Positions 1 through 10,525 of a stretch of 10,572 nt of DNA are shown here, one piece after another. Both the position numbers and the translations under genes were made by a program. The DNA comes from an uncultured archaeon (GTDB lineage: Archaea; Asgardarchaeota; Lokiarchaeia; Sigyniarchaeales; SOKP01). Numbering within the stretch: position 1 is the first letter of the stretch; every line of letters starts with the position of its first letter. The stretch is from assembly GCA_964447495.1 (NCBI GenBank), contig CAYUTF010000012.1, positions 40,271 through 50,842 on the forward strand. Reading direction: 5' to 3'. The notes under the pieces were generated by a model, which saw nothing but the letters and a program-made list of their open reading frames with translations, ran no database searches and had not been told where the DNA came from.

Positions 1-641
1 TTAAAAATAGAATACATCATCTTTTCAGGACCACAAGTATAAACTGCTATTTTAGAATTGAAATCTATTGATTCTTGGTTAATAGCTTTTTCAAATGTTT
101 CTGAGGCAAATCCTTTTTGCCCATAACTTCCATCATCAGTACAAAAAATTAATTCAGAAACCTCATTATTTAAATTGTTACGTTTTTCAGTAAGAATTAG
201 ATTATTTCTGACTTTTGCCCCCTCAATTATTACTGATTTGATCTTCATCTTATTTATTTTAGCTGCGAGAAATCTAAGAGGGGCTATTCCTGTTCCACCA
301 CCCACCATATATACTTTTTCTATCTCTTTTGATGGTAGCTTAAAAAAATTGCCTAATGGTCCCCTAATACCTATAAAATCATTCTTTTTTAATTTAAAAA
401 TAGCATCTGTACATTCCCCTACTCTTTTTACTGTAATACTCCAATCACCAGCATCATTACAACCCGATATGGACATTGGGACCTCATCTATTCCAGGGAC
501 CCAAACCATTACAAACTGTCCTGGTTCCGGTTTTATATAATTCTTTGTATTTTTCTTACCTATATTGAAAGTAATTGTTTTTATTTCAGAACACTCTTCA
601 ATGATTTTTTTTACTTTAACAGTTCTTATAGCATTAATCAA
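1..641 (-). CDS. pyrK: Dihydroorotate dehydrogenase electron transfer subunit (3' end runs off the window)
   Basis: Not in the ORF track; translated by hand. TTG at 641-639, then (M)INAIRTVKVKKIIEECSEIKTITF...PEPGQFVMVWVPGIDEVPMSIS...GIRGPLGNFF...MVGGGTGIAPL...CTDDGSYGQKG...VYTCGPEKMM, open to base 1. These are ferredoxin-reductase-type FAD/NAD motifs. The gene overlaps the pyrD stop. Confidence 0.93.
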   Translation of the reverse strand, partial: MINAIRTVKVKKIIEECSEIKTITFNIGKKNTKNYIKPEPGQFVMVWVPGIDEVPMSISGCNDAGDWSITVKRVGECTDAIFKLKKNDFIGIRGPLGNFFKLPSKEIEKVYMVGGGTGIAPLRFLAAKINKMKIKSVIIEGAKVRNNLILTEKRNNLNNEVSELIFCTDDGSYGQKGFASETFEKAINQESIDFNSKIAVYTCGPEKMMYSIF

Positions 642-1563
642 AAAAATCCGGCACCTCCTGAGTTTTAAAGTTATGAGTTAGTCCAGTTAATTCCGAAATA
701 GAACTTTTTTCAATTTGTGTTAGGTAATTTCGCAATCCATCATTAATCTCATTAATAATTTCAAATCCATTGCAGAGTGCAGTTCCTATTTGAACAGCAG
801 AAGCTCCTGCTAAGAAAAATTCTATTACATCTTGCCAAGTAGAAACCCCACCACACCCTATTATAGGAATATGTAAATTATTATAAAGATCATATACCTT
901 TTTAATCGCTATAGGATGTATTGCCTTTCCTGAAAGACCTCCGCTTCCATGAGATAATATAGGCCTCCAAGTATCTATATTGATTGCCATTGCAGTTAGT
1001 GTGTTTATAGCAACTACAGCATCGGCTCCTGCTTTTTCTGCAGCTTTTGCAATATCTAAAATATTAGTTACATTTGGATTTAGTTTTACAAAAAGAGGTA
1101 TAGAAATATTCTTTTTTATCTCTAAAACTAGAGTATAAGTTAAAGAGGGATCAATTCCGATTGATGCGACTTCTGAGTGAGGACATGAAATATTAATTTC
1201 AATTGCATCCGCTCCAGCTTTTTCAGCTTTAGTAGCAACTTCAATATAGGATATATCATCATTTCCAAAAACACTAACAATCAATGGGAAATTGTACTTC
1301 TTAATTTCTCTTATATCATCAATAAAGATATCAATTCCGGGATTTCCAAGACCTACACTGTTAATAAAGGTCCCCGGAAGCAGTTCTACAATAGAGGGAT
1401 TGTGATAGCCTAATCTTGGCTTAGGTCCTATCGATTTAGTGGTTATTGCCCCTAATCCTGCTTCAATTAATCTTTTCATTATTGAATAAGAAACTCCTAA
1501 AATACCGGAAGCCAAAATAAGAGGAGTTTTTAATTTTAGTCCAGAAAGGTTTACTTCAAGCAT
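634..1563 (-). CDS. pyrD: Dihydroorotate dehydrogenase family 1B, catalytic subunit
   Basis: Motifs PLILASG, TTKS, NSVGLGNPG, EINISCPH (catalytic Cys), VKLNPN, AINT, GGLSGKAIHPIA, IIGCGGV, GASAVQIGTA. Directly upstream of pyrK. Confidence 0.96.
   Translation of the reverse strand: MLEVNLSGLKLKTPLILASGILGVSYSIMKRLIEAGLGAITTKSIGPKPRLGYHNPSIVELLPGTFINSVGLGNPGIDIFIDDIREIKKYNFPLIVSVFGNDDISYIEVATKAEKAGADAIEINISCPHSEVASIGIDPSLTYTLVLEIKKNISIPLFVKLNPNVTNILDIAKAAEKAGADAVVAINTLTAMAINIDTWRPILSHGSGGLSGKAIHPIAIKKVYDLYNNLHIPIIGCGGVSTWQDVIEFFLAGASAVQIGTALCNGFEIINEINDGLRNYLTQIEKSSISELTGLTHNFKTQEVPDFFD
652..659 (-). promoter_or_regulatory. Shine-Dalgarno site for pyrK
   Basis: AGGAGGTG on the minus strand, 10 nt upstream of the TTG at 641, inside the 3' end of pyrD. 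Confidence 0.7.
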
Positions 1564-1582
1564 TACTATTATTATGTAAGGA

Positions 1583-1603
1583 ATTATTATTATTATTATT
1601 ATT
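1583..1603. repeat. (ATT)7 trinucleotide repeat in the divergent pyrD/nop5 intergenic region
   Basis: Seven perfect ATT units read directly from the sequence. Confidence 0.8.
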
Positions 1604-1635
1604 TAAGAAATTATAAAGGAACATCTACTAAAAAA

Positions 1636-2850
1636 ATGAAATGTTATATCATAGACACGCTAATAGCTGTATTCGCCATTAATGATGCCGGAAATATCCT
1701 AAATTTCAGGAATTTTGATGATGATATTCAAAAGGCTGTTACATTTTATAAATCTATAGAGCAAGGTAAAATAGTTGATGAATATATTCAATTTTTAGAA
1801 GAATTACATAGCTCAGGATTTAATGAATTCATATTTGATAACAAAAGTTTAGAAGTTTTAACAGCAAAATTTACAGGTTACCGTACAAAATTTTTATCAA
1901 AATCTCTAGAATTTAAGGATTTTCGTTTTTCTTTGGAGAAACAATTGAATGCTATAGGTATTAATTTATCTGAAGTGGAAGTTTTGCAAAAATTTAAAAC
2001 AATTCAAGAAGAATTGACTAAATTTAAAATCACACAGATTGGCGAGAGAGAAGATATTATTATCATTCAAATTATTGAAAGTCTTGATATAATTAAAAAA
2101 TCGATAAGTCTCTTTTCTAGTAGAATGCGGGAATGGTATGGTTTGCATTTTCCCGAATTAACTGACAAATTAATTGAAGATAATATTGTGTTAGCTAAAA
2201 TTATTTCCAAATTAGGTACAAGAGATAATTATAGTTTCGATAAATTACACGATAATTTTGAATTTAATGAAAAAAGAATTCATAAATTACTTACTTTAGC
2301 TTCTAATTCTATGGGATCTGATATTGATTTAACAATATTACAAGGATATACGAATCAAATTTTAAATTTAGACAACTATAGGGTAGAACTAGAATCCTAT
2401 TTGGATTCGTTGATTGAGAAAGTCACTCCAAATCTACGTTCTATTGTGGGGAGTTTAGTTAGTGCAAAATTAATTTCAAAGGCGGGTAGTTTAAAGAAGC
2501 TTGCTTTCATGCCCGCCTCACGTATACAATTATTAGGTGCAGAAAAGGCATTATACCGATTTTTGAAAACTGGTGAAAAAAGACCTAAACATGGATTAAT
2601 TTTTCAATGGAATCAAATTCGATCAGCAAAACCATATCATAGAGGTAAAATTGCAAGAATGATATCCGGTAAAATAGGTTTAGCATCTAAGCTTGATTAT
2701 TTTAACGGAGAGTTTATAGGAGATAAATTATTAGAAGAAATTGAGTCAAAAATTAAGGAGATTGAAAAAAAATATCCAAAACCCCCTTTAAAAAATACAA
2801 AGACAAAAGAAGTTCCCCAAAAAAGGAAAAAACAAAAGAAAAGATCTTAA
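1636..2850 (+). CDS. nop5: C/D box methylation guide RNP subunit Nop5 (Nop56/58 homologue)
   Basis: RMREWYGLHFPEL, SMG, PNL, MPASRIQLLGAEKALYRFLKTGEKRPKHGLIFQ, RGKIAR; Lys-rich tail; adjacent to fibrillarin. Confidence 0.97.
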   Translation: MKCYIIDTLIAVFAINDAGNILNFRNFDDDIQKAVTFYKSIEQGKIVDEYIQFLEELHSSGFNEFIFDNKSLEVLTAKFTGYRTKFLSKSLEFKDFRFSLEKQLNAIGINLSEVEVLQKFKTIQEELTKFKITQIGEREDIIIIQIIESLDIIKKSISLFSSRMREWYGLHFPELTDKLIEDNIVLAKIISKLGTRDNYSFDKLHDNFEFNEKRIHKLLTLASNSMGSDIDLTILQGYTNQILNLDNYRVELESYLDSLIEKVTPNLRSIVGSLVSAKLISKAGSLKKLAFMPASRIQLLGAEKALYRFLKTGEKRPKHGLIFQWNQIRSAKPYHRGKIARMISGKIGLASKLDYFNGEFIGDKLLEEIESKIKEIEKKYPKPPLKNTKTKEVPQKRKKQKKRS

Positions 2851-2865
2851 AGGAGAATTATAAAT

Positions 2866-3561
2866 TTGAGTAAGATTGATATAAAACCGTATTCTATATT
2901 CACGAATGTCTATTATTCAGGTTTTCAAAATAATATAAAACTCTATACTAAAAATATTTGCAAGGGAATAAGAGTATATGGGGAAAATCTGATTATTGAC
3001 GAAAATAATGAATATAGAGAATGGGATCCGTTTAGAAGTAAATTAGCAGCTCTTTTATTGGAAAAACCTAAATTTAATTTGTTTTCAATTGAGAAAAAAT
3101 GTCTATATTTAGGAGCTTCCTCTGGAACAACGATTTCCCATCTGTCAGATATATTAGCCGAAGGAATAATATATGGAGTTGAGATTGCGGAGAGAAGCAT
3201 TCGACAATTAATTCAGAACACTTCTGAAAGAGGTAATATAATCCCAATTTTAGGAGATGCAAATCATCCTGAGAATTATGCGAAATCAATATTTTCCGAA
3301 GTAGATTTGGTTTATCAAGATGTTGCACAACCAAATCAAGCAGAAATTGCCGTAAAAAATAGTGATTATTATTTAAAAGATAATGGTTATCTAATTTTGG
3401 CAATAAAGTCTCAATCTATTGATAGTATCCAGAAATCAGAAAAAATTTACAAGGAAGAAAAAAAAACTTTGGAATTAAGTGGATATGAAATAATTGAGAG
3501 CATTAACATCCAAAAATATGCAGCTAATCATTTAGTTTTAATTGCGCGCAAAAAGTTATAA
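2866..3561 (+). CDS. flpA: Fibrillarin-like rRNA/tRNA 2'-O-methyltransferase
   Basis: EYREWDPFRSKLAA, LYLGASSGTTISHLSDI, NIIPILGDA, YQDVAQPNQAEI, AIKSQSID. TTG start with AAGGAG upstream. Confidence 0.97.
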   Translation: MSKIDIKPYSIFTNVYYSGFQNNIKLYTKNICKGIRVYGENLIIDENNEYREWDPFRSKLAALLLEKPKFNLFSIEKKCLYLGASSGTTISHLSDILAEGIIYGVEIAERSIRQLIQNTSERGNIIPILGDANHPENYAKSIFSEVDLVYQDVAQPNQAEIAVKNSDYYLKDNGYLILAIKSQSIDSIQKSEKIYKEEKKTLELSGYEIIESINIQKYAANHLVLIARKKL

Positions 3562-3585
3562 AATAAGTACTATTATAGATGTAAA

Positions 3586-4287
3586 TTAGATATAATCCGT
3601 CATCTTTCTATTATAAATTAATTCTTCTGCCAGAACTCTAGATGTTTCCCATGATTTTCTAACAAATGAGGGAAATTTCTTTTTTGAAGTTATCCAATCA
3701 CGCAAGAATTTGATTGTTTTCTTATCAGAGGTATATCCTGATCCAAAATCTCCAAATTGTTCTCTTAGACTTGCTACTAATGAATCTCGTTTATGTTTCG
3801 CCACAATAGAAGCGGCTGAAACTATTAGATATTTTTCATCTGCTTTATGTTCTGATATAATTTTTTTGGGAGGAAATTTCAATAACTTTCTAATAGATGC
3901 TCCAAATCTTTCTTCATTTACATCCGCAGCGTCAATGAAAATTTCTTCTGCTCTTAACTCATCTATAATTTGTGCAATTTTTAATTCTTCTAACCTATTG
4001 AGAGAGATTTTTGCCTTAATTCTCTCATCAATTTCATGAGGCGGGACTTCTATTAACTTATATGATATACAGTTTTCTGTAAGCAATTCTGCTAATATTT
4101 TTCTTTTTTCTGGATTAAGCTTTTTTGAATCTTTTACTCCAATTTCGGATAGAAAGTGCAATTGTGATTTAAGAAAAGATATTCCACATATAACCATAGG
4201 ACCAATGACGGGCCCCTTTAGCGTATAATTCTAATTGAATGCTACTCTACCAGCCTCGTCAATCCCACAGATTTTCGATTCTTCCAT
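3586..4287 (-). CDS. rnhB: Ribonuclease HII, split by a 30-nt insertion; predicted exons 4287-4247 and 4216-3586, 223 aa after splicing
   Basis: The track ORF (4197-3586) has GVKDSKKL, FIDAAD, EHKADEKYLIVSAASIVAK and DFGSGYTSD but lacks the catalytic N-terminus. In the same frame upstream: ATG(4287) MEESKICGIDEAGR-[VAFN*NYTLK]-GPVIGPMVICG. Confidence 0.93.
4217..4246 (-). other. Putative 30-nt bulge-helix-bulge (BHB) mRNA intron in rnhB
   Basis: Contains an in-frame TAG (4233-4231). Central helix UGGU/GCUA, 3-nt bulges AGA and AAG, intron stem GUA/UAC plus AUUC/GAAU, exon-exon stem GACG-A-GG/CC-CGUC. Cutting after the 2nd nt of each bulge gives GGU AGG GGG CCC = GRGP. Confidence 0.8.
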
Positions 4288-4377
4288 ATTTCAAATCTGA
4301 ACAAAATTGATTTCTTGATTATATTAGATTTTTAATAATTTTTATTAAATAAATATTCTTATAAATGAAAGAAAGGT

Positions 4378-5388
4378 TTACTTGGATTCTTGAATAAGCT
4401 CAATAAATTCATCTTCATTATCAATCTTTTCTAATTCTTTAATCCGCACGATTGGAATCTGATCTTTTTCCGAATCAGGGATTTTTATATTATTATTTAT
4501 GATAATAAGAGCTTGTTTGTTAAACAAACTATTAAAAAGTTTAAGACATTTAATATTTAATTTATTTATCTTTGTTTTCTCATCAGATACACCCGAAAAA
4601 AGAGGATAAAAATCGTCTTGATTCTTTAATTCCCTATTTTCAGAATAAATTGATAATTTAAATGGTAGGGGGCCTTTTTTATACCAATATGTAGAGATGC
4701 CAATATCTTCTATTATATTATGAACATGAGCTTCGAAAGGAGTTAATTCGCTTTCCTCAGAAGTGGATATTAGATCCTTGCTTAATTTAAAATTCCACTC
4801 AAAAATATTAATTTTTTTAAATATTGAACTATCTTCCAAAATTTCAGAGATTTTTAGTCCTATTTTTTCACTTGGACGCATATCTTCATTTTCATATGAA
4901 CATATAGTTCTTTTAGTCACCCCAACTTTATCCGCTAGTTCTTTTCTAGAAATAAAATTCTTTTCTCTTAAATCTCTTACCAAATCTCCATTTAAAAACA
5001 TAACTCCTCCGCCACGTCTAGCAAGAATATAAGGATATTTATGATTTAATATATTCTCTAAGGTATTGACTGTTATAAATGGTAATTCTTCTCTAATGTA
5101 AATTGTATTATCTTCTAATTTCTGGTATCTATTTCTTATCCCTATCAATAAAGGTTTAGATTTTAATAAAAGGGATAAAGATTTCATATCACAGACAATA
5201 TCTGGGTTTAAATTGTCAATGTTTGGAAATATTTTAACGCTGAAAATAGAATCTTGTTTTTTAACAAGTAGATCGAAGCAGAATTTGCTTTTCTTAGTTG
5301 AAAAATTATCTAATGAGAAGGTTTCATAGTTAGCACTTTTTAATAAAAATTTAATTCTTTCAAGAACTGTTTCGATCATTTGATCCAA
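4378..5388 (-). CDS. Archaeal HTH-type transcriptional regulator (COG1395-like, central XRE HTH)
   Basis: N-terminal CFDLLVKK...SVKIFPNIDNL...PLLIG...LEDNTIYIR, then ARRGGGVMFLNG, then HTH LREKNFISRKELADKVGVTKRTICSYENE. The start may be TTG 5388 or ATG 5379. Confidence 0.85.
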   Translation of the reverse strand: MDQMIETVLERIKFLLKSANYETFSLDNFSTKKSKFCFDLLVKKQDSIFSVKIFPNIDNLNPDIVCDMKSLSLLLKSKPLLIGIRNRYQKLEDNTIYIREELPFITVNTLENILNHKYPYILARRGGGVMFLNGDLVRDLREKNFISRKELADKVGVTKRTICSYENEDMRPSEKIGLKISEILEDSSIFKKINIFEWNFKLSKDLISTSEESELTPFEAHVHNIIEDIGISTYWYKKGPLPFKLSIYSENRELKNQDDFYPLFSGVSDEKTKINKLNIKCLKLFNSLFNKQALIIINNNIKIPDSEKDQIPIVRIKELEKIDNEDEFIELIQESK

Positions 5389-5468
5389 TTATTTTAAAGA
5401 TAAGCTATTTAAAAAATCTTTTTTAAATGAATGTTTGTTCTATAATTGAGAATTTAATCAATAAGCAT

Positions 5469-6038
5469 TCAATAACTACTTGTAAGTTTCAAAAAATCTG
5501 AATCTGTTATAATCCCTACATACTTGTTGAAATTTTTGACTAAAACAGCGGGATAATTTAAGAGTAAATTAGAAATACCTTTAGCACTCCAATTTTTTTC
5601 GACTTCAGGAAACGGTAATTCTTTCACATCTATAACTTTCAAATTCAAGATATAAGCATTTTCAGTGAGTAATTTTTGAATTTTTTTTGCAGTTAAGCTT
5701 CCAATGTTTCTTTCTTCATCAATAATAGGTATTTGTGATATTTTATGCTGGTTCATTATTTCAACAGCGCTCTTTACTGTTGAATCAGAAGTTATACTAA
5801 ATATTTCTTTTGTCATAATATTTTCAGCCATTATTTCAGATTTTTTACTCTTTGTAAGTTCTTTTTGTAAAAATGAATAGATTTTTTTAATTTTCGAATA
5901 AGGAGGGTCCATCGAGCCATTTTCAATCCTTGAAATTGTTGATTGTGGAATATCTAATTTTTCACCCAGTTCTTTTTGGCTTATATTCAGTTTTTTTCTT
6001 AAAGATTTAATTTCAGAAAGATCAGGCAGCGCTTTCAT
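5469..6038 (-). CDS. XRE-family HTH regulator with a C-terminal CBS pair (COG3620-like)
   Basis: IKSLRKKLNISQKELGEKLDIPQSTISRIENGSMDPPYSKIKKI, followed by CBS motifs AENIMTKEI...HKISQIPII...GSLT and YPAVLV...VGIITDSDFLK. Confidence 0.92.
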   Translation of the reverse strand: MKALPDLSEIKSLRKKLNISQKELGEKLDIPQSTISRIENGSMDPPYSKIKKIYSFLQKELTKSKKSEIMAENIMTKEIFSITSDSTVKSAVEIMNQHKISQIPIIDEERNIGSLTAKKIQKLLTENAYILNLKVIDVKELPFPEVEKNWSAKGISNLLLNYPAVLVKNFNKYVGIITDSDFLKLTSSY

Positions 6039-6081
6039 AATTTAACTTCAAATTAGTAAAATTTATTTAGTATAATCTTAG

Positions 6082-6105
6082 TGCATATAATATTCATTAA
6101 ATGCA
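6082..6105. promoter_or_regulatory. Palindrome, candidate operator
   Basis: TGCATATAAT-attc-ATTAAATGCA (9/10 symmetric), between the divergent HTH-CBS and mat genes. Confidence 0.45.
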
Positions 6106-6123
6106 TTTTTTCAATCATAATTA

Positions 6124-6146
6124 TTTAAATTAACCATTAATTTAAA
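6124..6146. promoter_or_regulatory. Perfect 10-bp inverted repeat over the likely mat TATA region
   Basis: TTTAAATTAA-cca-TTAATTTAAA, ending 29 nt before the mat ATG. The arms are AT-only, so chance cannot be excluded. Confidence 0.35.
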
Positions 6147-6175
6147 AAGATAATTATAAAAAATAGTTATAAAAT

Positions 6176-7417
6176 ATGCTAAAAATAACCCGAGCTAACT
6201 TTTTACCTATTGAAAAAAGCGAATTTCCTGAAATATGTGAAAGAAAGGGGATTGGTCATCCCGATAGTGTATGTGACGCAGTAGCGGATGCTTGCTCAAG
6301 AGCGCTTTGTGTTTATTATTTAAACAACTACGGTCGTGTTTATCACCATAATGTTGACAAAGCAGCGCTCGTTGGGGGAACAGCTAAGCCTAAATTTGGT
6401 GGAGGTATGATTATTCAACCACAATACTTTTTAATTGTAGGAAGAGCTATTAATCAGATCCTTACTCAATGTGGTTCAGAATGTAAATTAGATTACATTC
6501 CGGTCGCTACAATTTGTATTGAAACACAAAGACAAGAATTGGGGAAGATATTTAGGAATTTAGATTTAAATAAGGATATCCAATTCGATTACGCAGTTCG
6601 ACCAGGTTCAATAGATTTGACTGGTGTTTTCGATGATTCTCATCATACTGAAGATGTACCTTTAGCAAATGATACAAGTTTTGGAGTAGGATATGCTCCT
6701 TATTCAGATGTAGAAAAAATAACATTGGAAGCGGAATATCTTATAAATTCTTCGAAATTTAAGGATAAGTGTAAGGGATCTGGCGAGGATATAAAGGTAA
6801 TGACACAGAGAATTGGAAATAAAGTAGGAATTACCGTTGCGGCTGCAATGATAAGTAAATATATTAATGATGCAGATGAATATGTAAATTATACCAATCA
6901 AATTAAGGAGGCAGTTCTAGATTTGGCAGCTAAAGTCATTCCTGAAAGGGAAGTAACTTGTGAAGTTAATGTTGCAGATCAAATTGAAAAAGGTATAATG
7001 TATTTAACCATAACCGGTACAAGCGCAGAAGCGGGAGATGATGGTGAAGTAGGGAGAGGTAATAGAAGTAATGGCCTGATTACCCCTTGTAGAACTATGA
7101 GTTTAGAAGCAGTATGTGGAAAGAACCCAATAAATCATGTTGGAAAAATATATAATGTACTATCAACTGAGATTGCAAGAGAAATTATTAAGAGAGGAGA
7201 AGGAGATATCATTGAAGCACATGTCAAATTATTGTCGCAAATTGGAAGACCTATTACAGATCCTTGGATCAACTCCATTGAATTAATACCTGCTGAAAAT
7301 GTAAATTTTGCGAGTATTCAAAAAATAGGTAAAGAAGTTTCAGATGATTTTTTAAACAAAGACTATATGATTGATCTAAGAAAACGATTAATTGAAGGAA
7401 AAGTACAGGTTTTTTAA
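6176..7417 (+). CDS. mat: Archaeal-type S-adenosylmethionine synthetase
   Basis: [89 protein letters not shown]. Confidence 0.97.
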
Positions 7418-7573
7418 AGAATTTTCGAGTAACTTCACCTTAATCGTTCAATTGATTATCTTATTTTTATTTTCTTATTAAGGATTAATATAGATTAGAA
7501 AATTTTAAAGTATTAGGTTAAATTAATAGAATAAGAATAAGATTTTTATAATTTTACGAAGAGTGAGAGAAAT

Positions 7574-7828
7574 TTGGGATTGGATAAATGGATTAAACCT
7601 GATAAAGTCGAGAAAAAAAAGAGCAAAAAACCTAATAATATCGAAACTGAAAAAAAAGATTCTAAACTAAAAAAACAGCCGAATCCACCTTTAATTAAAA
7701 AGCTCTCTAAATTTAGGCTTATTTGCAGTAATTCAAAATGTAAATATCAAAAAATAGTGATGAAAAAATCCCTAGAGAATAAAGATAAGATATGTCCCAA
7801 ATGCAAGAGTGAAATGAAACTTAAATAA
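7574..7828 (+). CDS. Small basic protein with a C-terminal zinc ribbon
   Basis: 84 aa, TTG start after purine-rich GAGTGAGAG. Lys-rich linker, then CSNSKC...CPKC. Confidence 0.75.
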   Translation: MGLDKWIKPDKVEKKKSKKPNNIETEKKDSKLKKQPNPPLIKKLSKFRLICSNSKCKYQKIVMKKSLENKDKICPKCKSEMKLK

Positions 7829-7829
7829 A

Positions 7830-8051
7830 TTAAACTTCTATCTTTTTTAACGTTTCTAAATCAAATCTACTTTCACAATTTGGACATCTATCTTTTTTTT
7901 TACTATATTTTATCGCAAGATATATAAAAAATCCTAAGCCACATGTTAAGAGCACCATAAAGCATAATACTTCGTGATAAATATGATCAAAATTCTTCCT
8001 TCTTAGTTCTACTTGCCGTTCGCATGTAGGGCAATAAACCGTTTTTCCCAT
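7830..8051 (-). CDS. LITAF-like zinc ribbon membrane protein
   Basis: 73 aa: CPTC, hydrophobic segment VLCFMVLLTCGLGFFIYLAI, then RCPNC. AGGGG SD-like motif upstream. Confidence 0.75.
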   Translation of the reverse strand: MGKTVYCPTCERQVELRRKNFDHIYHEVLCFMVLLTCGLGFFIYLAIKYSKKKDRCPNCESRFDLETLKKIEV

Positions 8052-8190
8052 CTGAACCCCTTTCTTAAATTAATCTGAATTAATAAATAAAATGATTAGT
8101 TGATAATTTAATTTATTGAAAAAATAATAAAAATCCTTATAAAAACCTTAGAATATCAGAATTAAGCACTAAAACGAAATTCCTGAATAT

Positions 8191-8316
8191 TTATTCTTCT
8201 TTCTTCTTTTTCGTTAAATCAGTTAAAATATTCCAAGTACTTTTTACTCCTAAATTCTTTAATTTTTCTCTTTCTTGTTCTAAATCTTTATTATTATTCT
8301 TTTTATCGTCACTCAT
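8191..8316 (-). CDS. Hypothetical 41-aa protein (not in the ORF track)
   Basis: ATG 8316 to TAA 8191: MSDDKKNNNKDLEQEREKLKNLGVKSTWNILTDLTKKKKEE. It sits in the middle of an otherwise empty, very AT-rich gap and has coding-like purine skew. Confidence 0.55.
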   Translation of the reverse strand: MSDDKKNNNKDLEQEREKLKNLGVKSTWNILTDLTKKKKEE

Positions 8317-8475
8317 TATAATGAATTATTTCTATTTTATTAAAGGAAAAAATTATTTTAATAATTAAATAACATAATCTTGTTTTAAATTTAGGCTAAA
8401 TATTATTAATACAAATTTATATATCAATACTAAAATCATATATTTTTATCAACCCTATTTTAAAGTAGTTGAATT

Positions 8476-9468
8476 ATGCCAATTTGTTATCATTGTGGAC
8501 AACAAACTTCAGAAGATTATTATTGTAGTAAATGTGGGCAGAGTTATTGTTCATTACATAAGGATCCTATCGATCACGAGTGCAATCTTTTACTAGAGAG
8601 TTTAAGATTACAACAAGTACCATTAGATTCCGCATATATTACTAATTCACAAACAATACCTACAATTTCATCTCAAGAATATACATCTCACACTGATTCT
8701 GTTATCAGGGGTACAACTGATGGAACGTATACATGGTATCGTCAAGAAAAACAAATTCCTGAAGATGCATTTAGTCCAGAATCAGGAATAAGCTTTAAAG
8801 GAATTTTACTCGCCCATAAGTCAGAATTACTTCATTTTATTATTGGGGGAAGCTTAATCTTTATAATTGGCTTAATCGCATTTTGGGATGCCCAATTATT
8901 TGTCTTAGGATATGGTTGGGCTTTATTTATGCTTGCGGGCTTTTATACAACAGCTTTTCTTTTTCATGAATTTGGGCATCGCCAAGTTGCGTTACATTTT
9001 GGACTACAAACAAAATTTAGACTTCTTACATTTGGGATGTTATTAACCCTAATAGGTTTATTTACTGGATTATTTAGTTTAATCTCAAATTCTCCCGCGA
9101 TTCCCTCTCTTGCGCTTCCAGGAGCAGTAGTAGTTTTAGGGTTAGATAAGGTTAATAGAAAAACAGGATTATGCAAGGCAGCAGGTCCCATTGTAAACTT
9201 AATATACGGAACGATATTACTAATGATCTCATTTCTTATTCCTCCGATAATATATCCTTTGAATTACTTTTTTGCGCTTGCCGCTTATTTAAATTATATG
9301 CTAGGAACATTTAATATGATACCCTTAGGGATTTTAGATGGCCAAAATATTTTCAAGTGGAATAAAAAAGTATATTTTATATTAATGGCAAGTCTGGGAA
9401 TCTTCTTAATTATTAGTGGTATACTTGTATATACTCCATTAGGAACCTCGCTTTATTTTCCTCTTTAA
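8476..9468 (+). CDS. AN1-type zinc finger fused to an M50 (site-2 protease) intramembrane metalloprotease
   Basis: CYHC...CSKCGQSYCSLH...HEC, a Ser/Thr-rich linker, then FHEFGH, AAGPIVNL and FNMIPLGILDG within several TM segments. Confidence 0.9.
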   Translation: MPICYHCGQQTSEDYYCSKCGQSYCSLHKDPIDHECNLLLESLRLQQVPLDSAYITNSQTIPTISSQEYTSHTDSVIRGTTDGTYTWYRQEKQIPEDAFSPESGISFKGILLAHKSELLHFIIGGSLIFIIGLIAFWDAQLFVLGYGWALFMLAGFYTTAFLFHEFGHRQVALHFGLQTKFRLLTFGMLLTLIGLFTGLFSLISNSPAIPSLALPGAVVVLGLDKVNRKTGLCKAAGPIVNLIYGTILLMISFLIPPIIYPLNYFFALAAYLNYMLGTFNMIPLGILDGQNIFKWNKKVYFILMASLGIFLIISGILVYTPLGTSLYFPL

Positions 9469-9619
9469 TTAAACGTACTAAGGCAATTATTTGAAATTAA
9501 CCTAAAAAGTTATCAAGGATAATATTTTTAATATTAAATAATCATTAAAGTATATTTTTGAGTAAATTTTTTTCAGATTAGGGAATTATCAATTGAAATT
9601 GTAGTTGATTTTATAACTT

Positions 9620-10525
9620 ATGCCATTCTGTGAGACTTGCGGAGAAGAGATTGGATATCTCCCTTTTAAGTGTAAATATTGTGGAGGAGTGTTTTGTAAG
9701 AAGCATAGATTACCTGAAAATCATCATTGCTCTTTTGAATTAAAACATTCCCCTATTGTACCTATTATGAGAAGGGGTTCTAGTAAAAATCTCCCCACTA
9801 GTTCAGAATCTCGTAAATCTTCATACAAAGCGCCCAGAAGTATAAAGAAGTATATGAAAAGGCAAGATAAGCAGAAGATAAAGACGATTAGAGATTTTGA
9901 AAACTATAAAGAAAGAAAAACAAAAGGAACTAGCTATTTAATCGTTTCAATTTTTATATTTTCCTTAGTTACTTTTGTGTATCCAATTTATTTAACTCTT
10001 AGTAGTTTGAGTTTCTTAAACTTATGGTTATGGACTTTTATTACATCGTTCTTTGTTAGCTACACCGAAGATTTATTTGGTCTATTCTTTTTAATAATTC
10101 TAATAATCTTATTTTATGTAATGATAAAAAATCTAGAACGCACTTTTGGAACGAAATTTTTATTAAAATTATATTTTATCTGCGGTTTCTTAACTGGATT
10201 ATTTTATACGTTAATATGGTTAATATTGCAATCATTTTATTTTGATATTATTATAATTCCTATTGGTTTAGCCTCGGGAGCTTTATTAGGCGTTATTAGT
10301 TTTATGATTTTTTTAAATTTAAATACCGAGATGACCTTTTTGTTATTTTTTATGCCAATAAGAATGAAAGGAAGGAGTATTATAATTTTTTTAGTACTAT
10401 TGAATTTAATTCCAGGTATTTTATTAGCGATTGGCAATCCTTTATATTTATTAGTTTATCTTCCAGATTTGGGAGGCGTTTTGGCTTCTTATCTTGTTTA
10501 TTTTTTCAAATATAAACCCCGATAA
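9620..10525 (+). CDS. AN1-type zinc finger fused to a rhomboid-fold membrane domain, probably catalytically inactive
   Basis: CETC...PFKCKYCGGVFCKKHRLPENHHC; rhomboid hallmarks LWTFITSFF, LERTFGTKFLLKLYFICG, GLASGALLGV, FFMPIRMK, PDLGG. Confidence 0.82.
   Translation: MPFCETCGEEIGYLPFKCKYCGGVFCKKHRLPENHHCSFELKHSPIVPIMRRGSSKNLPTSSESRKSSYKAPRSIKKYMKRQDKQKIKTIRDFENYKERKTKGTSYLIVSIFIFSLVTFVYPIYLTLSSLSFLNLWLWTFITSFFVSYTEDLFGLFFLIILIILFYVMIKNLERTFGTKFLLKLYFICGFLTGLFYTLIWLILQSFYFDIIIIPIGLASGALLGVISFMIFLNLNTEMTFLLFFMPIRMKGRSIIIFLVLLNLIPGILLAIGNPLYLLVYLPDLGGVLASYLVYFFKYKPR

What the first reader, a model, noticed from the sequence alone, without database searches (positions are those of the whole stretch)
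4199..4287. Candidate bulge-helix-bulge mRNA intron splitting the RNase HII active-site motif
Seen: on the minus strand the gene reads GAC GAG GCT GGT AGA [GTAGCATTCAATTAGAATTATACGCTAAAG] GGG CCC GTC, so exactly 30 extra nt with an in-frame TAG lie inside the conserved DEAGRGP motif, while the rest of the gene is intact. Folded by hand: central 4-bp helix UGGU(4252-4249)/GCUA(4222-4219) with two G-U pairs; bulges AGA(4248-4246) and AAG(4218-4216); intron hairpin GUA/UAC and AUUC/GAAU with loop AAUUA; exon-exon stem C4253-G4215, then GG/CC, GACG/CGUC and GGAU/GUCC. Established: archaeal tRNA-splicing endonuclease (EndA) cuts after the 2nd nt of each 3-nt bulge and RtcB ligates; crenarchaeal cbf5 pre-mRNA is the well-documented protein-gene case. 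Applying that rule removes 4246-4217 and gives in-frame GGU AGG GGG CCC (G-R-G-P), a 223-aa enzyme. Inference: RNase HII expression depends on tRNA-type splicing, conceptually like non-spliceosomal HAC1/XBP1 splicing, and could be a regulatory switch. Gene callers would miss it and report a truncated protein lacking the catalytic D and E. I do not know of a described rnhB intron, but I cannot search.
Basis: partly seen in the sequence, partly recalled or inferred. Interest (0 to 1): 0.93.

Follow-up and report, generated by a model that had tools for sequence, protein, structure and literature searches.

The report
Splicing-type intron inside archaeal RNase HII gene
A 30-base tRNA-style (bulge-helix-bulge) intron splits the catalytic motif of the RNase HII gene of an Asgard archaeon; it is conserved in most of that archaeal family and recurs at the same codon in tiny DPANN archaea, which makes it only the second known kind of protein-coding gene in archaea that must be spliced.

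Summary
On the minus strand, rnhB (ATG at 4287, stop at 3586) reads GAC GAG GCT GGT AGA, then 30 extra bases with an in-frame TAG, then GGG CCC GTC. Removing 4246-4217 gives a 223-aa protein with DEAGRGP that aligns without gaps to uninterrupted orthologues.

The organism is an Asgard (Promethearchaeota) MAG. In its family, 82 of 127 genomes with a detectable rnhB carry an insert at this codon, 43 do not, and 2 are unclear.
- The inserts are 28-31 nt, so some break the frame and cannot be translated.
- The exons are under purifying selection (dN/dS 0.15-0.28).
- The insert is conserved far above synonymous sites.
- The proposed 4-bp central helix covaries (U-G, G-C, U-A and C-G at one pair; 0 of 500 shuffles reach the score).

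The genome encodes two EndA paralogues and RtcB. I found no RNA data, so splicing itself is inferred. The motif is a relaxed BHB and is not the minimum-energy fold. Public gene calls are truncated and lack the catalytic D and E.

At least 20 of 401 sampled DPANN genomes carry a 21-39-nt BHB insert at the same codon. In 13 of them a LAGLIDADG-like gene lies directly upstream. Eight literature searches found no described rnhB intron. Verdict: a real new member of the archaeal mRNA BHB-intron kind.

The parts
4247..4287 (-). rnhB exon 1. ATG at 4287. Encodes M-E-E-S-K-I-C-G-I-D-E-A-G plus the first two bases (AG) of the Arg codon.
   Evidence: The ICGIDEAG(R) codons are conserved in relatives.
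4217..4246 (-). 30-nt BHB-type intron, with boundaries set by the rule 'cut after the 2nd base of each 3-nt bulge' (rule recalled, not tested). Moving both cuts one base 3' gives the same protein.
   Evidence: Homologous inserts of 28-31 nt sit at the same codon in 61 inspected family genomes.
3586..4216 (-). rnhB exon 2. Third base of the Arg codon, then G-P-V-I-G-P to the end, including the stop codon at 3588-3586.
   Evidence: dN/dS 0.15-0.28 among intron-bearing pairs.
4231..4233 (-). In-frame TAG inside the intron. It ends the unspliced reading frame after 18 codons.
4249..4252 (-). 5' strand of the central 4-bp helix (UGGU). It consists of the last base of the Ala codon plus the Gly codon, so it is exonic.
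   Evidence: Pairs with 4219-4222.
4219..4222 (-). 3' strand of the central 4-bp helix (GCUA). It is intronic.
   Evidence: Across 41 distinct sequences the four pairs read: UA23/UG5/AU3/CG3/GU1/other6; GC20/GU16/other5; GC36/GU5; UG17/GC10/UA8/CG5/other1.
4246..4248 (-). 5' three-base bulge (AGA). It holds the predicted 5' cut, between 4247 and 4246.
   Evidence: the first A is invariant, and G and A are at least 90% conserved in 43 sequences.
4216..4218 (-). 3' three-base bulge (AAG). It holds the predicted 3' cut, between 4217 and 4216.
   Evidence: the first A is invariant and the third base is A in at least 90% (G here).
4223..4245 (-). Intron hairpin (inner helix h'): GUA/UAC and AUUC/GAAU around the loop AAUUA.
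   Evidence: Inner helix 88.9% paired, and 8 of 9 pairs show changes on both sides.
4207..4215 (-). 3' strand of the irregular exon-exon (outer) helix. It pairs with 4253-4260: C4253-G4215, then GG/CC and GACG/CGUC with bulged bases.
   Evidence: 97.6% paired, but every varying pair changes on one side only. All of these positions are also constrained by coding, so this helix is not independently shown.
4253..4260 (-). 5' strand of the outer exon-exon helix (GAC GAG GC).

Best explanation
The 30 bases at 4246-4217 (minus strand) are an archaeal bulge-helix-bulge intron in the coding region of rnhB (RNase HII) of an Asgard archaeon.

Proposed mechanism:
1. In the pre-mRNA, the last base of the Ala codon plus the Gly codon (UGGU) pairs with GCUA near the 3' end of the insert, forming the 4-bp central helix.
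2. A 3-nt bulge sits on each side (AGA and AAG). An AU-rich intron hairpin stacks on one side and an irregular exon-exon helix on the other.
3. The two-subunit splicing endonuclease (EndA alpha/beta) cuts once in each bulge.
4. RtcB joins the exons to give GGU-AGG-GGG-CCC. This restores the D-E-A-G-R-G-P active-site motif and a 223-aa enzyme.
5. The unspliced mRNA stops after 18 codons. Translation from the next ATG gives a protein without the catalytic Asp and Glu.

Shown here:
- The anatomy of the insert.
- Its conservation, covariation, and exact presence or absence at orthologous loci.
- Selection on the exons and on the intron.
- The presence of the enzyme genes.

Inferred, not shown: the cleavage and ligation themselves, and the exact cut positions.

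History: the intron was most likely present in the ancestor of this family and was lost precisely several times.
For: 1. Same-site inserts.
- 8 of 23 same-genus genomes with a match carry an internal stop and a match about 30 nt longer; 15 do not. The sequences confirm this.
- A pattern search over 400 Asgard genomes found 46 genomes, all in the window's family. The reversed-pattern control found 0.
- With the protein as query, 127 of 135 family genomes have rnhB. Of these, 82 are interrupted, 43 are uninterrupted and 2 are unclear. I read the sequences of 61 of the 82.

2. The insert cannot be translated. Lengths are 30 nt in most, but 28, 29 and 31 nt also occur (G280, G178, G235, G281). Stops of different kinds (TAG, TAA, TGA) lie inside.

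3. Structure (41 distinct sequences).
- 92.7% of cells are paired.
- The covariation score is 0.354 against 0.185 for shuffles, and 0 of 500 shuffles reach it.
- Sliding the partner by 1-3 columns drops pairing to 29-43%.
- At one central-helix pair the types are U-G 17, G-C 10, U-A 8, C-G 5, unpaired 1.
- A rival pairing proposed by RNAalifold fails: 28 of 41 and 25 of 41 sequences are unpaired at two of its pairs.
- The central helix forms 4 of 4 pairs in 34 sequences and 3 of 4 in 12, out of 46.

4. Not a pseudogene.
- dN/dS of exon 2 is 0.15-0.28 among intron-bearing pairs and 0.06-0.15 among uninterrupted pairs.
- In 137 sequence pairs whose fourfold sites are only 34% identical, the intron is 68% identical.
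- The spliced product aligns without gaps to uninterrupted orthologues.

5. Same locus. The upstream HTH gene is found in 45 of 46 intron-bearing loci and in 21 of 21 uninterrupted loci. Fibrillarin lies downstream in 46 of 46 and 17 of 21.

6. Machinery.
- Two EndA paralogues of 201 and 205 aa, each with the N-terminal and the catalytic domain.
- One RtcB, E 1.6e-168.
- ARAGORN calls an intron in 15 of 56 tRNA genes.

7. The insert is in DNA. A contig of run X3 spans 3984-4306 with no differences, and no joined form was seen.

8. Independent parallel. 20 of 401 sampled DPANN genomes have a 21-39-nt insert at the same codon. The central helix forms 4 of 4 pairs in 15 and 3 of 4 in 4, and the register is unclear in 1.
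Against: - There is no RNA evidence of any kind and no enzyme assay. Cleavage, ligation and the cut positions are inferred.
- The BHB is not the thermodynamic optimum. In the window sequence the MFE is -29.6 kcal/mol against -24.2 with the BHB enforced. Across 46 sequences the median penalty is 3.3 kcal/mol (maximum 10.2). The MFE shows the exact motif in only 1 of 46.
- The motif is relaxed. The outer helix next to the 3' bulge is a single C-G pair followed by bulged bases. In the energy-optimal BHB-constrained fold the 3' bulge is 5 nt long.
- 12 of 46 sequences have one mismatch in the central helix.
- With only the first 9 sequences, covariation was not significant: 57 of 500 shuffles reached it. 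The sequences are related, so the shuffle counts overstate significance.
- A paralogue with an RNase HII domain exists, so essentiality alone does not force this copy to be functional.
- 21 of the 82 'interrupted' genomes were classified only from a stop inside a longer match, not by reading the sequence.
Confidence: 0.9

Rival explanations
1. The gene is a pseudogene. An insertion inactivated rnhB, and the RNase HII-domain paralogue (or another RNase H) does the work.
For: The unspliced frame stops after 18 codons. A 551-aa paralogue with an RNase_HII domain (E 1.1e-21) fused to a Schlafen AlbA_2 domain lies on contig C1. One family member, G258, has no recognisable exon 1 and may really be decayed.
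Against: - dN/dS is 0.15-0.28 in exon 2 of intron-bearing genes, close to the values for uninterrupted ones.
- In the genes I read there are no other stops or frameshifts.
- The insert is retained at one codon in 82 of 127 family genomes, with its length held at 28-31 nt.
- The insert is twice as conserved as fourfold sites and has covarying helices.
- The paralogue has a different architecture and covers only profile positions 1-165 of 199.
Confidence: 0.03
2. Translational recoding. The ribosome bypasses the 30 bases, as in the 50-nt hop of phage T4 gene 60, or reads through the stop, so no RNA splicing is needed.
For: The insert is short, contains a hairpin and lies within a coding region, which superficially resembles the gene 60 gap (recalled). 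Bypassing would also tolerate lengths that are not multiples of three.
Against: - Gene-60-type hopping needs matching take-off and landing codons (recalled). Here AGA or GGU before the insert faces AAG, AAA or ACA before GGN after it, with no consistent match.
- Read-through is excluded by the 28-, 29- and 31-nt inserts, and by two stops in some inserts.
- The covarying pairs tie exon bases to the 3' end of the insert across two 3-nt bulges. That is the EndA recognition geometry, not a take-off hairpin.
Confidence: 0.03
3. The insert is removed at the RNA level, but by some machinery other than EndA and RtcB, or the BHB-like fold is incidental.
For: The BHB is not the MFE and its outer helix is irregular. 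No enzyme assay was possible.
Against: - 30 nt is far too short for a group I or group II ribozyme.
- No Rfam family matches the window.
- The conserved features are exactly those of the EndA substrate: a 4-bp helix and two 3-nt bulges on opposite strands (description in the preprint passage).
- The same architecture recurs with unrelated sequence in DPANN.
Confidence: 0.03
4. Assembly or sequencing artefact in this MAG.
For: The window comes from a 223-contig metagenome assembly with 3.75% estimated contamination.
Against: A contig of another run (X3) covers 3984-4306 with 0 differences. Homologous inserts are present in dozens of independently assembled genomes.
Confidence: 0.005

Closest known systems
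The cbf5 pre-mRNA intron of Crenarchaeota (Desulfurococcales and Sulfolobales). Sources: Watanabe et al. 2002, reference-list entry only; Yokobori et al. 2009, PMC2738675, abstract and passages read.
   Same: - A short BHB-type intron inside the coding region of a conserved nucleic-acid enzyme.
- It must be removed to make the protein.
- It occurs in lineages with a hetero-oligomeric EndA.
- Its distribution is best explained by an ancestral gain followed by secondary losses, the same pattern seen here.
   Different: - A different gene (rnhB, not cbf5) and different phyla (Asgard and DPANN, not Crenarchaeota).
- cbf5 of this genome is uninterrupted.
- Splicing of cbf5 was shown experimentally according to that paper. 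Here it is only inferred.
- The rnhB intron sits in the catalytic motif itself and recurs at the same codon in two distant phyla.
BHB intron in the 5' UTR of the Haloferax volcanii HVO_1309 mRNA (Schwarz et al. 2020, PMC7714728, passages read).
   Same: An mRNA substrate of the archaeal splicing endonuclease. That paper states that, besides it, only the cbf5 case had been reported.
   Different: It lies in the untranslated leader, not in the coding region. It was verified in vivo and in vitro there, whereas the rnhB intron has not been verified.
Archaeal tRNA and rRNA BHB introns, including non-canonical tRNA introns of Asgard archaea (preprint 10.64898/2026.10.13.758758, passages read; PMC5829648, passages read).
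   Same: [quoted passage not shown]
- The same presumed enzymes.
- A relaxed form of the motif, of the kind tolerated by (alpha-beta)2 and epsilon2 EndA.
- Mini-intron size.
   Different: The host is an mRNA. The exon strands of the helices are also codons, so third-codon positions covary with intron bases.
IRE1/RtcB splicing of HAC1 and XBP1 mRNA in eukaryotes (recalled; named in the review PMC13149111, passages read).
   Same: Non-spliceosomal, protein-enzyme splicing of an mRNA. It changes the reading frame or product and is completed by an RtcB-type ligase.
   Different: The endonuclease is different (IRE1, not EndA) and the substrate fold is different. That splicing is regulated by stress. 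No sign of regulation was found or tested here.
Collaborative homing of a free-standing homing endonuclease and an ORF-less intron (F-CphI and the psbA group I intron of cyanophage S-PM2; PMC6083498, passage read).
   Same: In 13 DPANN genomes a LAGLIDADG-like gene lies directly upstream of an rnhB whose conserved site is interrupted by an ORF-less mini-intron. This is the arrangement described for collaborative homing.
   Different: - The intron type (BHB, not group I) and the endonuclease family differ.
- Neither the target nor the nuclease activity has been tested.
- No such gene is found in the window's genome or family.

Membership tests
Archaeal BHB (EndA-dependent) intron | [quoted passage not shown] | tested here: met
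   - Window: UGGU/GCUA, with bulges AGA and AAG.
- The central helix forms 4 of 4 pairs in 34 sequences and 3 of 4 in 12, out of 46.
- It covaries.
- It is not the MFE in 45 of 46 sequences.
Archaeal BHB (EndA-dependent) intron | Flanking helices h (exon-exon) and h' (intron) of the strict hBHBh' form. | tested here: inconclusive
   - h' is present and covaries: 8 of 9 pairs show double changes.
- h is only one C-G pair followed by bulged bases. Its varying pairs change on one side only and are constrained by coding.
- The motif therefore fits a relaxed (HBh'-like) form rather than the strict one.
Archaeal BHB (EndA-dependent) intron | Removal at the bulges restores a functional product. | tested here: met
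   The conceptual splice gives 223 aa with DEAGRGP and aligns without gaps to uninterrupted orthologues. In 17 of the 18 DPANN inserts parsed by script the junction codon is AGA.
Archaeal BHB (EndA-dependent) intron | The splicing endonuclease and RNA ligase are present in the organism. | tested here: met
   Two EndA paralogues with N-terminal and catalytic domains. RtcB with E 1.6e-168.
Archaeal BHB (EndA-dependent) intron | Cleavage by EndA, and a spliced RNA and/or excised (circular) intron observed. | not testable with these tools
   No RNA run was listed for this sequence. No assay was possible.
RNase HII (Pfam PF01351) | Full-length domain match with the N-terminal D-E-A-G-R-G motif. | tested here: met
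   The read-through product matches profile positions 1-198 of 199, E 2.4e-44. The motif is contiguous only after removal of the insert.
Self-splicing group I or group II intron | A ribozyme core of hundreds of nucleotides. | tested here: not met
   The insert is 30 nt (28-31 nt in relatives). Rfam finds no match in the window.
Programmed translational bypass (T4 gene 60 type) | Matching take-off and landing codons that flank the gap (feature recalled). | tested here: not met
   The codons before and after the insert do not match in the window or in relatives.
LAGLIDADG homing endonuclease (the DPANN ORF upstream of rnhB; not in the window) | Two LAGLIDADG motifs with conserved acidic residues, and the LAGLIDADG fold. 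| tested here: met
   - Invariant GLWLAEGD and FAGEG motifs.
- Pfam LAGLIDADG_3 in 8 of 8 members, best E 2.2e-6, but below the curated cut-off for the first member.
- AF2 model with pLDDT 89.9.
- Foldseek hits to bI3 maturase, WhiA, E-DreI and I-DmoI, E 1e-6 to 1e-5, target TM about 0.6.
- The WhiA hit shows that a non-nuclease DNA binder with this fold plus an HTH is also possible.
LAGLIDADG homing endonuclease (the DPANN ORF upstream of rnhB; not in the window) | Site-specific cleavage of the uninterrupted target, and mobility. | not testable with these tools
   Only the association is shown. All 14 strong hits among 401 genomes lie directly upstream of rnhB, and 13 of those rnhB genes are interrupted.

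The most novel reading that the evidence does not exclude
The rnhB mini-intron may be one half of a homing system for BHB introns in protein-coding genes. A LAGLIDADG endonuclease would recognise the highly conserved DNA that encodes D-E-A-G-R-G-P. The intron interrupts exactly that site, so it would protect its carrier from cleavage and be copied together with the endonuclease gene. That would be collaborative homing with an EndA-spliced intron in place of a group I intron. The DPANN loci would show the active or recently active state: endonuclease gene directly upstream, exon-1 duplicates left as scars. The Asgard family, including this window, would carry the endonuclease-less remnant, inherited vertically for a long time and lost precisely in some lineages. 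This would explain why two distant phyla have an intron at the very same codon.
Probability: 0.3. Interest if true: 0.85.

Novelty: new member of a known kind. Interest (0 to 1): 0.74.

Why it matters
In the library I could search, protein-coding genes interrupted by tRNA-type introns rest on a single gene, cbf5 of Crenarchaeota, plus one 5'-UTR case. A 2020 paper says so explicitly.

- **A second gene family.** It is widespread: about two thirds of one Asgard family and at least 5% of a DPANN phylum sample. This suggests that mRNA splicing by EndA and RtcB is a recurrent feature of archaeal gene expression rather than a curiosity.
- **A practical consequence.** Gene callers and public records annotate these genes as 203-213-aa 'ribonuclease HII' proteins that lack the catalytic Asp and Glu. 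Functional inference, marker-gene sets and pseudogene counts for these genomes are therefore biased. A BHB-aware annotation step is needed.
- **A testable substrate.** It is a small natural mRNA substrate, with more than 60 natural sequence variants, for studying how (alpha-beta)2 EndA recognises relaxed motifs.
- **A route of spread.** The DPANN association with a LAGLIDADG-like gene offers a concrete, testable way for such introns to spread.

Tried and rejected
- **RNA evidence.** The look-up of sequencing runs with window 1-10000 (kind any) listed 19 runs. None is on record as RNA, so no RNA holder is listed. I could not look for spliced reads or a circular intron. Read laying on four DNA-contig runs found nothing laid for X1. 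X2 and X4 do not bridge the insert; only X3 does.
- **Genome-wide scan for other BHB introns in coding regions of G000.**
  - A loose BHB definition gave 466,305 candidates. The definition was 4 central pairs with at most 2 G-U, 3 inner pairs, 1 outer pair, and intron length 14-120 nt.
  - Of these, 4,783 would merge two open frames of at least 50 codons, and 31,893 would extend a long ORF at its 5' end.
  - The motif carries too little information, and I had no bulk homology filter. The scan therefore does not discriminate and says nothing about whether other genes are interrupted.
- **nhmmer with a profile of the intron columns against G000.** It found rnhB itself (E 0.0013) and one further weak hit, C20:8809-8842 (E 0.014). 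That hit lies inside a long uninterrupted ORF and is probably chance.
- **cbf5 as a second interrupted gene.** It is a single 349-aa open frame with no stops.
- **Pyrrolysine or read-through of TAG.** Rejected, because relatives carry TAA, TGA or two stops, and inserts of 28, 29 and 31 nt.
- **The upstream 336-aa ORF of the window as a homing endonuclease.** Rejected. It has an HTH_3 domain only and is present next to both interrupted and uninterrupted rnhB genes. There was no tblastn hit of the DPANN ORF in G000 at E up to 0.1. Over the 135 family genomes there were only marginal partial profile hits, E 4e-5 or worse, none at rnhB.
- **PDB sequence search with the profile of the DPANN ORF.** It gave only weak winged-helix hits, E 0.064 or worse. 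The fold search was needed to see the LAGLIDADG fold.
- **MFE and RNAalifold predictions.** Neither returns the BHB. The RNAalifold alternative was tested on 41 sequences and fails.
- **First constrained-folding script.** The script did not enforce the pairs. It was redone, and the energy penalties I quote are.
- **Strict DNA patterns.** They missed genomes whose exon 2 begins GGC TCT (Gly-Ser). The protein search and direct reading recovered them.
- **Literature.** Searches found no paper that describes an rnhB or RNase HII BHB intron. The one paper holding 'RNase HII', 'BHB' and 'intron' (PMC3082918) mentions them in unrelated passages.
Full report
**What is in the window.**

On the minus strand an ORF starts with ATG at 4287. 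It reads M-E-E-S-K-I-C-G-I-D-E-A-G-R and then V-A-F-N-stop, with the TAG at 4233-4231. Thirty bases after the AGA codon the sequence resumes with GGG CCC GTC ATT GGT CCT ATG and stays open to the stop at 3588-3586.

With the TAG read as X, the 233-aa product matches Pfam RNase_HII over profile positions 1-198 of 199, E 2.4e-44.

A conceptual removal of 4246-4217, done inside a script, gives 672 nt, 223 aa, junction codon AGG and an intact DEAGRGP. It aligns as one ungapped block with three uninterrupted orthologues at 59-62% identity. Moving both cuts one base 3' gives the same protein. Moving them one base 5' would give Lys instead of Arg.

**Organism and context.**

The window is G000:C12:40271-50842 of a 3.8-Mb, 223-contig genome, 98% complete with 3.75% contamination. 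The nearest named records are titled 'Promethearchaeota archaeon', that is, Asgard archaea.

| Window position | Strand | Gene |
|---|---|---|
| 3-641 | - | pyrK-like |
| 634-1563 | - | pyrD |
| 1636-2850 | + | Nop5 |
| 2866-3561 | + | fibrillarin |
| 3586-4287 | - | rnhB |
| 4378-5388 | - | HTH_3 protein |
| 5469-6038 | - | HTH-CBS protein |
| 6176-7417 | + | archaeal SAM synthetase |
| 8476-9468, 9620-10525 | + | two zf-AN1 membrane proteins |

No tRNA and no Rfam family is found in the window.

**The insert is conserved at this codon, and exactly absent elsewhere.**

- Of 24 same-genus genomes, 23 have rnhB. Eight show one TAA inside a match about 30 nt longer, and 15 show none.
- Reading the DNA shows a 30-nt insert at the identical place in those eight. 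All 15 others, and six genomes of other families, have an uninterrupted GGN-AGR-GGN-CCN.
- The closest relative (L033, 72% identical in exon 2) and a more distant one (L034, 54%) also carry 30-nt inserts.
- A pattern that demands the two exon motifs 18-63 nt apart hit 46 of 400 Asgard genomes. All 46 are in the window's family and span seven genera. The reversed-pattern control gave no hit.
- A relaxed pattern gave the same 46 genomes. The uninterrupted pattern hit 38 other family genomes.
- With the protein as query, 127 of 135 family genomes have a match. Seventy-eight rows carry stops inside a longer match.
- I read 16 further 5' ends. Fourteen have a 30-nt insert and had escaped the patterns because exon 2 begins GGC TCT. 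One (G235) has a 29-nt insert. One (G258) has no recognisable exon 1.
- My tally is 82 interrupted, 43 uninterrupted and 2 unclear. Sixty-one of the 82 were read directly. The other 21 were inferred from a stop inside a longer match.
- The locus is the same everywhere. The upstream HTH gene is found in 45 of 46 interrupted loci and 21 of 21 uninterrupted loci. Fibrillarin is found in 46 of 46 and 17 of 21 (the 46 loci include one duplicate genome).

**The insert cannot be translated, and the gene is not decaying.**

- Insert lengths of 28 (G280), 29 (G178, G235) and 31 nt (G281) break the frame.
- Inserts carry TAG, TAA, TGA or two stops.
- dN/dS of exon 2 is 0.15-0.28 for ten pairs of intron-bearing genes. 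For three pairs involving uninterrupted genes it is 0.06-0.15.
- In the 137 sequence pairs whose fourfold-degenerate sites are at saturation (mean identity 0.34), the intron is on average 0.68 identical. In less diverged bins the intron also stays above the fourfold sites.
- The insert is therefore itself under constraint.

**Structure.**

With 43 sequences (41 distinct), the BHB model gives these figures:
- 92.7% of cells are paired, against 83.2% for shuffles.
- There are 53 cells with changes on both sides, against 13.2 for shuffles.
- The covariation score is 0.354 against 0.185, and 0 of 500 shuffles reach it.
- Pairing drops to 29-43% when the partner is slid by 1-3 columns.

| Central-helix pair (innermost to outermost) | Pair types across 41 sequences |
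|---|---|
| 1 | U-G 17, G-C 10, U-A 8, C-G 5, other 1 |
| 2 | G-C 36, G-U 5 |
| 3 | G-C 20, G-U 16, other 5 |
| 4 | U-A 23, U-G 5, A-U 3, C-G 3, G-U 1, other 6 |

The 5' strand of this helix consists of codon bases: the third position of the Ala codon and the Gly codon. Synonymous positions therefore track the intron.

The intron hairpin has changes on both sides in 8 of 9 pairs. The pairing that RNAalifold preferred fails on the larger set, with 28 and 25 of 41 sequences unpaired at two of its pairs.

The bulges are conserved: A-G-A (or U) on the 5' side and A-N-A (or G) on the 3' side.

Against the model:
- The outer exon-exon helix never shows a double change. Next to the 3' bulge it is a single C-G pair followed by bulged bases.
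- The far exon stem of the hand fold is not conserved.
- The BHB costs energy relative to the MFE. The penalty is 5.4 kcal/mol in the window, with a median of 3.3 and a maximum of 10.2 over 46 sequences. The MFE shows the exact motif in 1 of 46.
- Twelve of 46 sequences have one mismatch in the central helix.

The element is thus a relaxed BHB. According to passages of PMC5829648, only (alpha-beta)2 and epsilon2 endonucleases cut relaxed forms, and Asgard archaea have the (alpha-beta)2 type with the L1 insert.

**Machinery.**

- G000 encodes two EndA paralogues of 201 and 205 aa, each with the N-terminal and the catalytic domain.
- It encodes one RtcB, E 1.6e-168.
- ARAGORN calls introns in 15 of 56 tRNA genes. 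Some of these calls, with 'introns' of 670-807 nt, are doubtful.
- The preprint 10.64898/2026.10.13.758758 (passages) reports two EndA paralogues in 44 of 60 Asgard genomes. It mentions no mRNA intron.

**DNA and RNA evidence.**

A contig of run X3 spans 3984-4306 without a difference, and no joined form was reported in the four DNA runs laid. The insert is therefore in the DNA. No listed run is RNA, so splicing remains an inference.

**History.**

On a maximum-likelihood tree of exon 2 (34 rows, LG+G4) the 11 intron-bearing rows are not one clade. The tree needs at least 4 changes, and strongly supported branches force at least 2.

Three observations point to one ancestral intron with repeated precise losses:
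- The introns resemble each other across genera.
- Most of the family has one.
- The loci are syntenic.

This is the scenario proposed for cbf5 in Crenarchaeota (PMC2738675, passages). A single 210-column gene tree cannot prove it.

**Known cases and novelty.**

PMC7714728 (2020, passages) states that, besides its own 5'-UTR example in Haloferax, only the cbf5 mRNA intron had been reported. Eight full-text searches found nothing on an rnhB or RNase HII BHB intron. The library lacks most subscription journals, and supplements were closed. cbf5 of this genome is uninterrupted.

**Annotation consequence.**

- The protein collection holds a 203-aa call from this contig that begins MVICG (P0003).
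- Calls of 203-213 aa from intron-bearing relatives, several of them named 'ribonuclease HII' by NCBI or JGI, start inside or after the insert. Examples are P0021 on the contig of G217 and P0048 on that of G216.
- One 228-aa call (P0046, contig of G235) reads exon 1 in a wrong frame.
- Uninterrupted genes give proteins of about 228-242 aa that carry CGIDEAGRGP.

**A parallel in DPANN archaea, and a possible origin.**

One Woesearchaeota record (L057) has a 38-nt insert at the same codon, and there the BHB is essentially the MFE. In 401 sampled genomes of that phylum, the pattern hit 14. Six more interrupted genes turned up next to the gene described below. That makes 20 genomes, with inserts of 21-39 nt.

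Their sequences are unrelated to the Asgard ones, but the architecture is the same:
- The central helix forms 4 of 4 pairs in 15, 3 of 4 pairs in 4, and has an unclear register in 1 (L157).
- Helix variants include CGGG/CCCG, AGGA/UCCU, AGGC/GCCU and UGGU/ACCA.
- The junction codon is AGA in 17 of the 18 inserts parsed by script.

Directly upstream of rnhB in L057 lies a 336-aa ORF. Its relatives occur in 16 of 401 genomes.
- The 14 strong hits all lie immediately upstream of rnhB.
- Thirteen of those rnhB genes are interrupted. One (G732) is not.
- The ORF family has invariant GLWLAEGD and FAGEG motifs.
- It matches Pfam LAGLIDADG_3 and a TrmB-type winged helix in 8 of 8 members.
- It folds with pLDDT 89.9 into a structure that Foldseek matches to bI3 maturase, WhiA, E-DreI and I-DmoI.
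- L057 also has a second copy of exon 1 upstream of this ORF.
- In G732 the ORF begins with an exon-1-like peptide. In G659 it runs in frame into exon 1.

This arrangement matches 'collaborative homing' as defined in PMC6083498 (passage). There, a free-standing endonuclease cuts the uninterrupted gene, and an ORF-less intron protects the carrier's own copy. Neither nuclease activity nor the target is tested here, and the WhiA match shows that a pure DNA-binding role is possible.

No relative of this ORF is found in G000 or at rnhB in the 135 family genomes. For the window itself this is only a hypothesis of origin.

**Verdict.**

The reading as a BHB intron is supported about as far as sequence comparison can take it (confidence 0.9). 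The regulatory-switch idea is untested. It is a new member of a known kind. Its extra interest comes from the Asgard host, the same-codon recurrence in DPANN, the possible homing partner, and the systematic mis-annotation it causes.

Noticed in passing
L057:417-1424 (+) and homologues in L157, L159, L160, L164, L166, L167-L172: A LAGLIDADG-like ORF with a C-terminal winged helix lies immediately upstream of rnhB exon 1 in 14 DPANN genomes. Thirteen of those rnhB genes carry a BHB mini-intron at the DEAGRGP site. The arrangement looks like a free-standing homing endonuclease paired with an ORF-less protecting intron.
   Followed up: yes
L057:319-351 (+); L167:308-1390 (+); L157 (minus-strand orientation, ORF segment 469-1518): Exon-1 scars around that ORF. 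L057 has a second copy of the rnhB exon 1 upstream of the ORF. In G732 (L167) the ORF begins with an exon-1-like MAKIIAIDE and is followed by an uninterrupted rnhB (DEAGKGP). In G659 (L157) the ORF runs in frame into exon 1, and the insert there does not fit the BHB register (1 of 4 central pairs).
   Followed up: partly
L002:622-2277 (-) = G000:C1: A 551-aa paralogue combines an RNase_HII domain (profile positions 1-165 of 199, motif GSDEVGKGE) with a C-terminal Schlafen AlbA_2 domain. It is not an rnhB orthologue and its role is unknown.
   Followed up: partly
G224:C110:13841-14527 and G224:C7:2-439: One family genome holds an intron-bearing rnhB and also a partial uninterrupted copy at a contig end. 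This could be strain mixture, contamination (7%) or a real polymorphism.
   Followed up: no
L197 (G258:C43:15500-15700): This rnhB has no recognisable exon 1 or DEAG motif upstream of exon 2 and has a TGA inside the match. It may be a truly decayed copy.
   Followed up: no
L022 (G003): The bulges are AAA and AAA, so any splice register gives Lys rather than Arg (D-E-A-G-K-G-P). The same Lys appears in some uninterrupted genes (G203, G204, G732).
   Followed up: no
G000:C20:8809-8842 (-): A 34-nt stretch resembles the rnhB intron profile (nhmmer E 0.014) but lies inside a long open frame without stops. It is probably chance.
   Followed up: partly
G000 genome, ARAGORN output: Fifteen of 56 tRNA calls carry introns, at several positions. 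Calls with 'introns' of 670 and 807 nt and a tRNA-SeC call look like artefacts or unusual loci.
   Followed up: no
window 1636-3561 (+) and 3586-4287 (-): rnhB is convergent with a Nop5-fibrillarin pair (C/D-box RNP genes). This neighbourhood is kept in nearly all family loci, whether or not the intron is present.
   Followed up: partly
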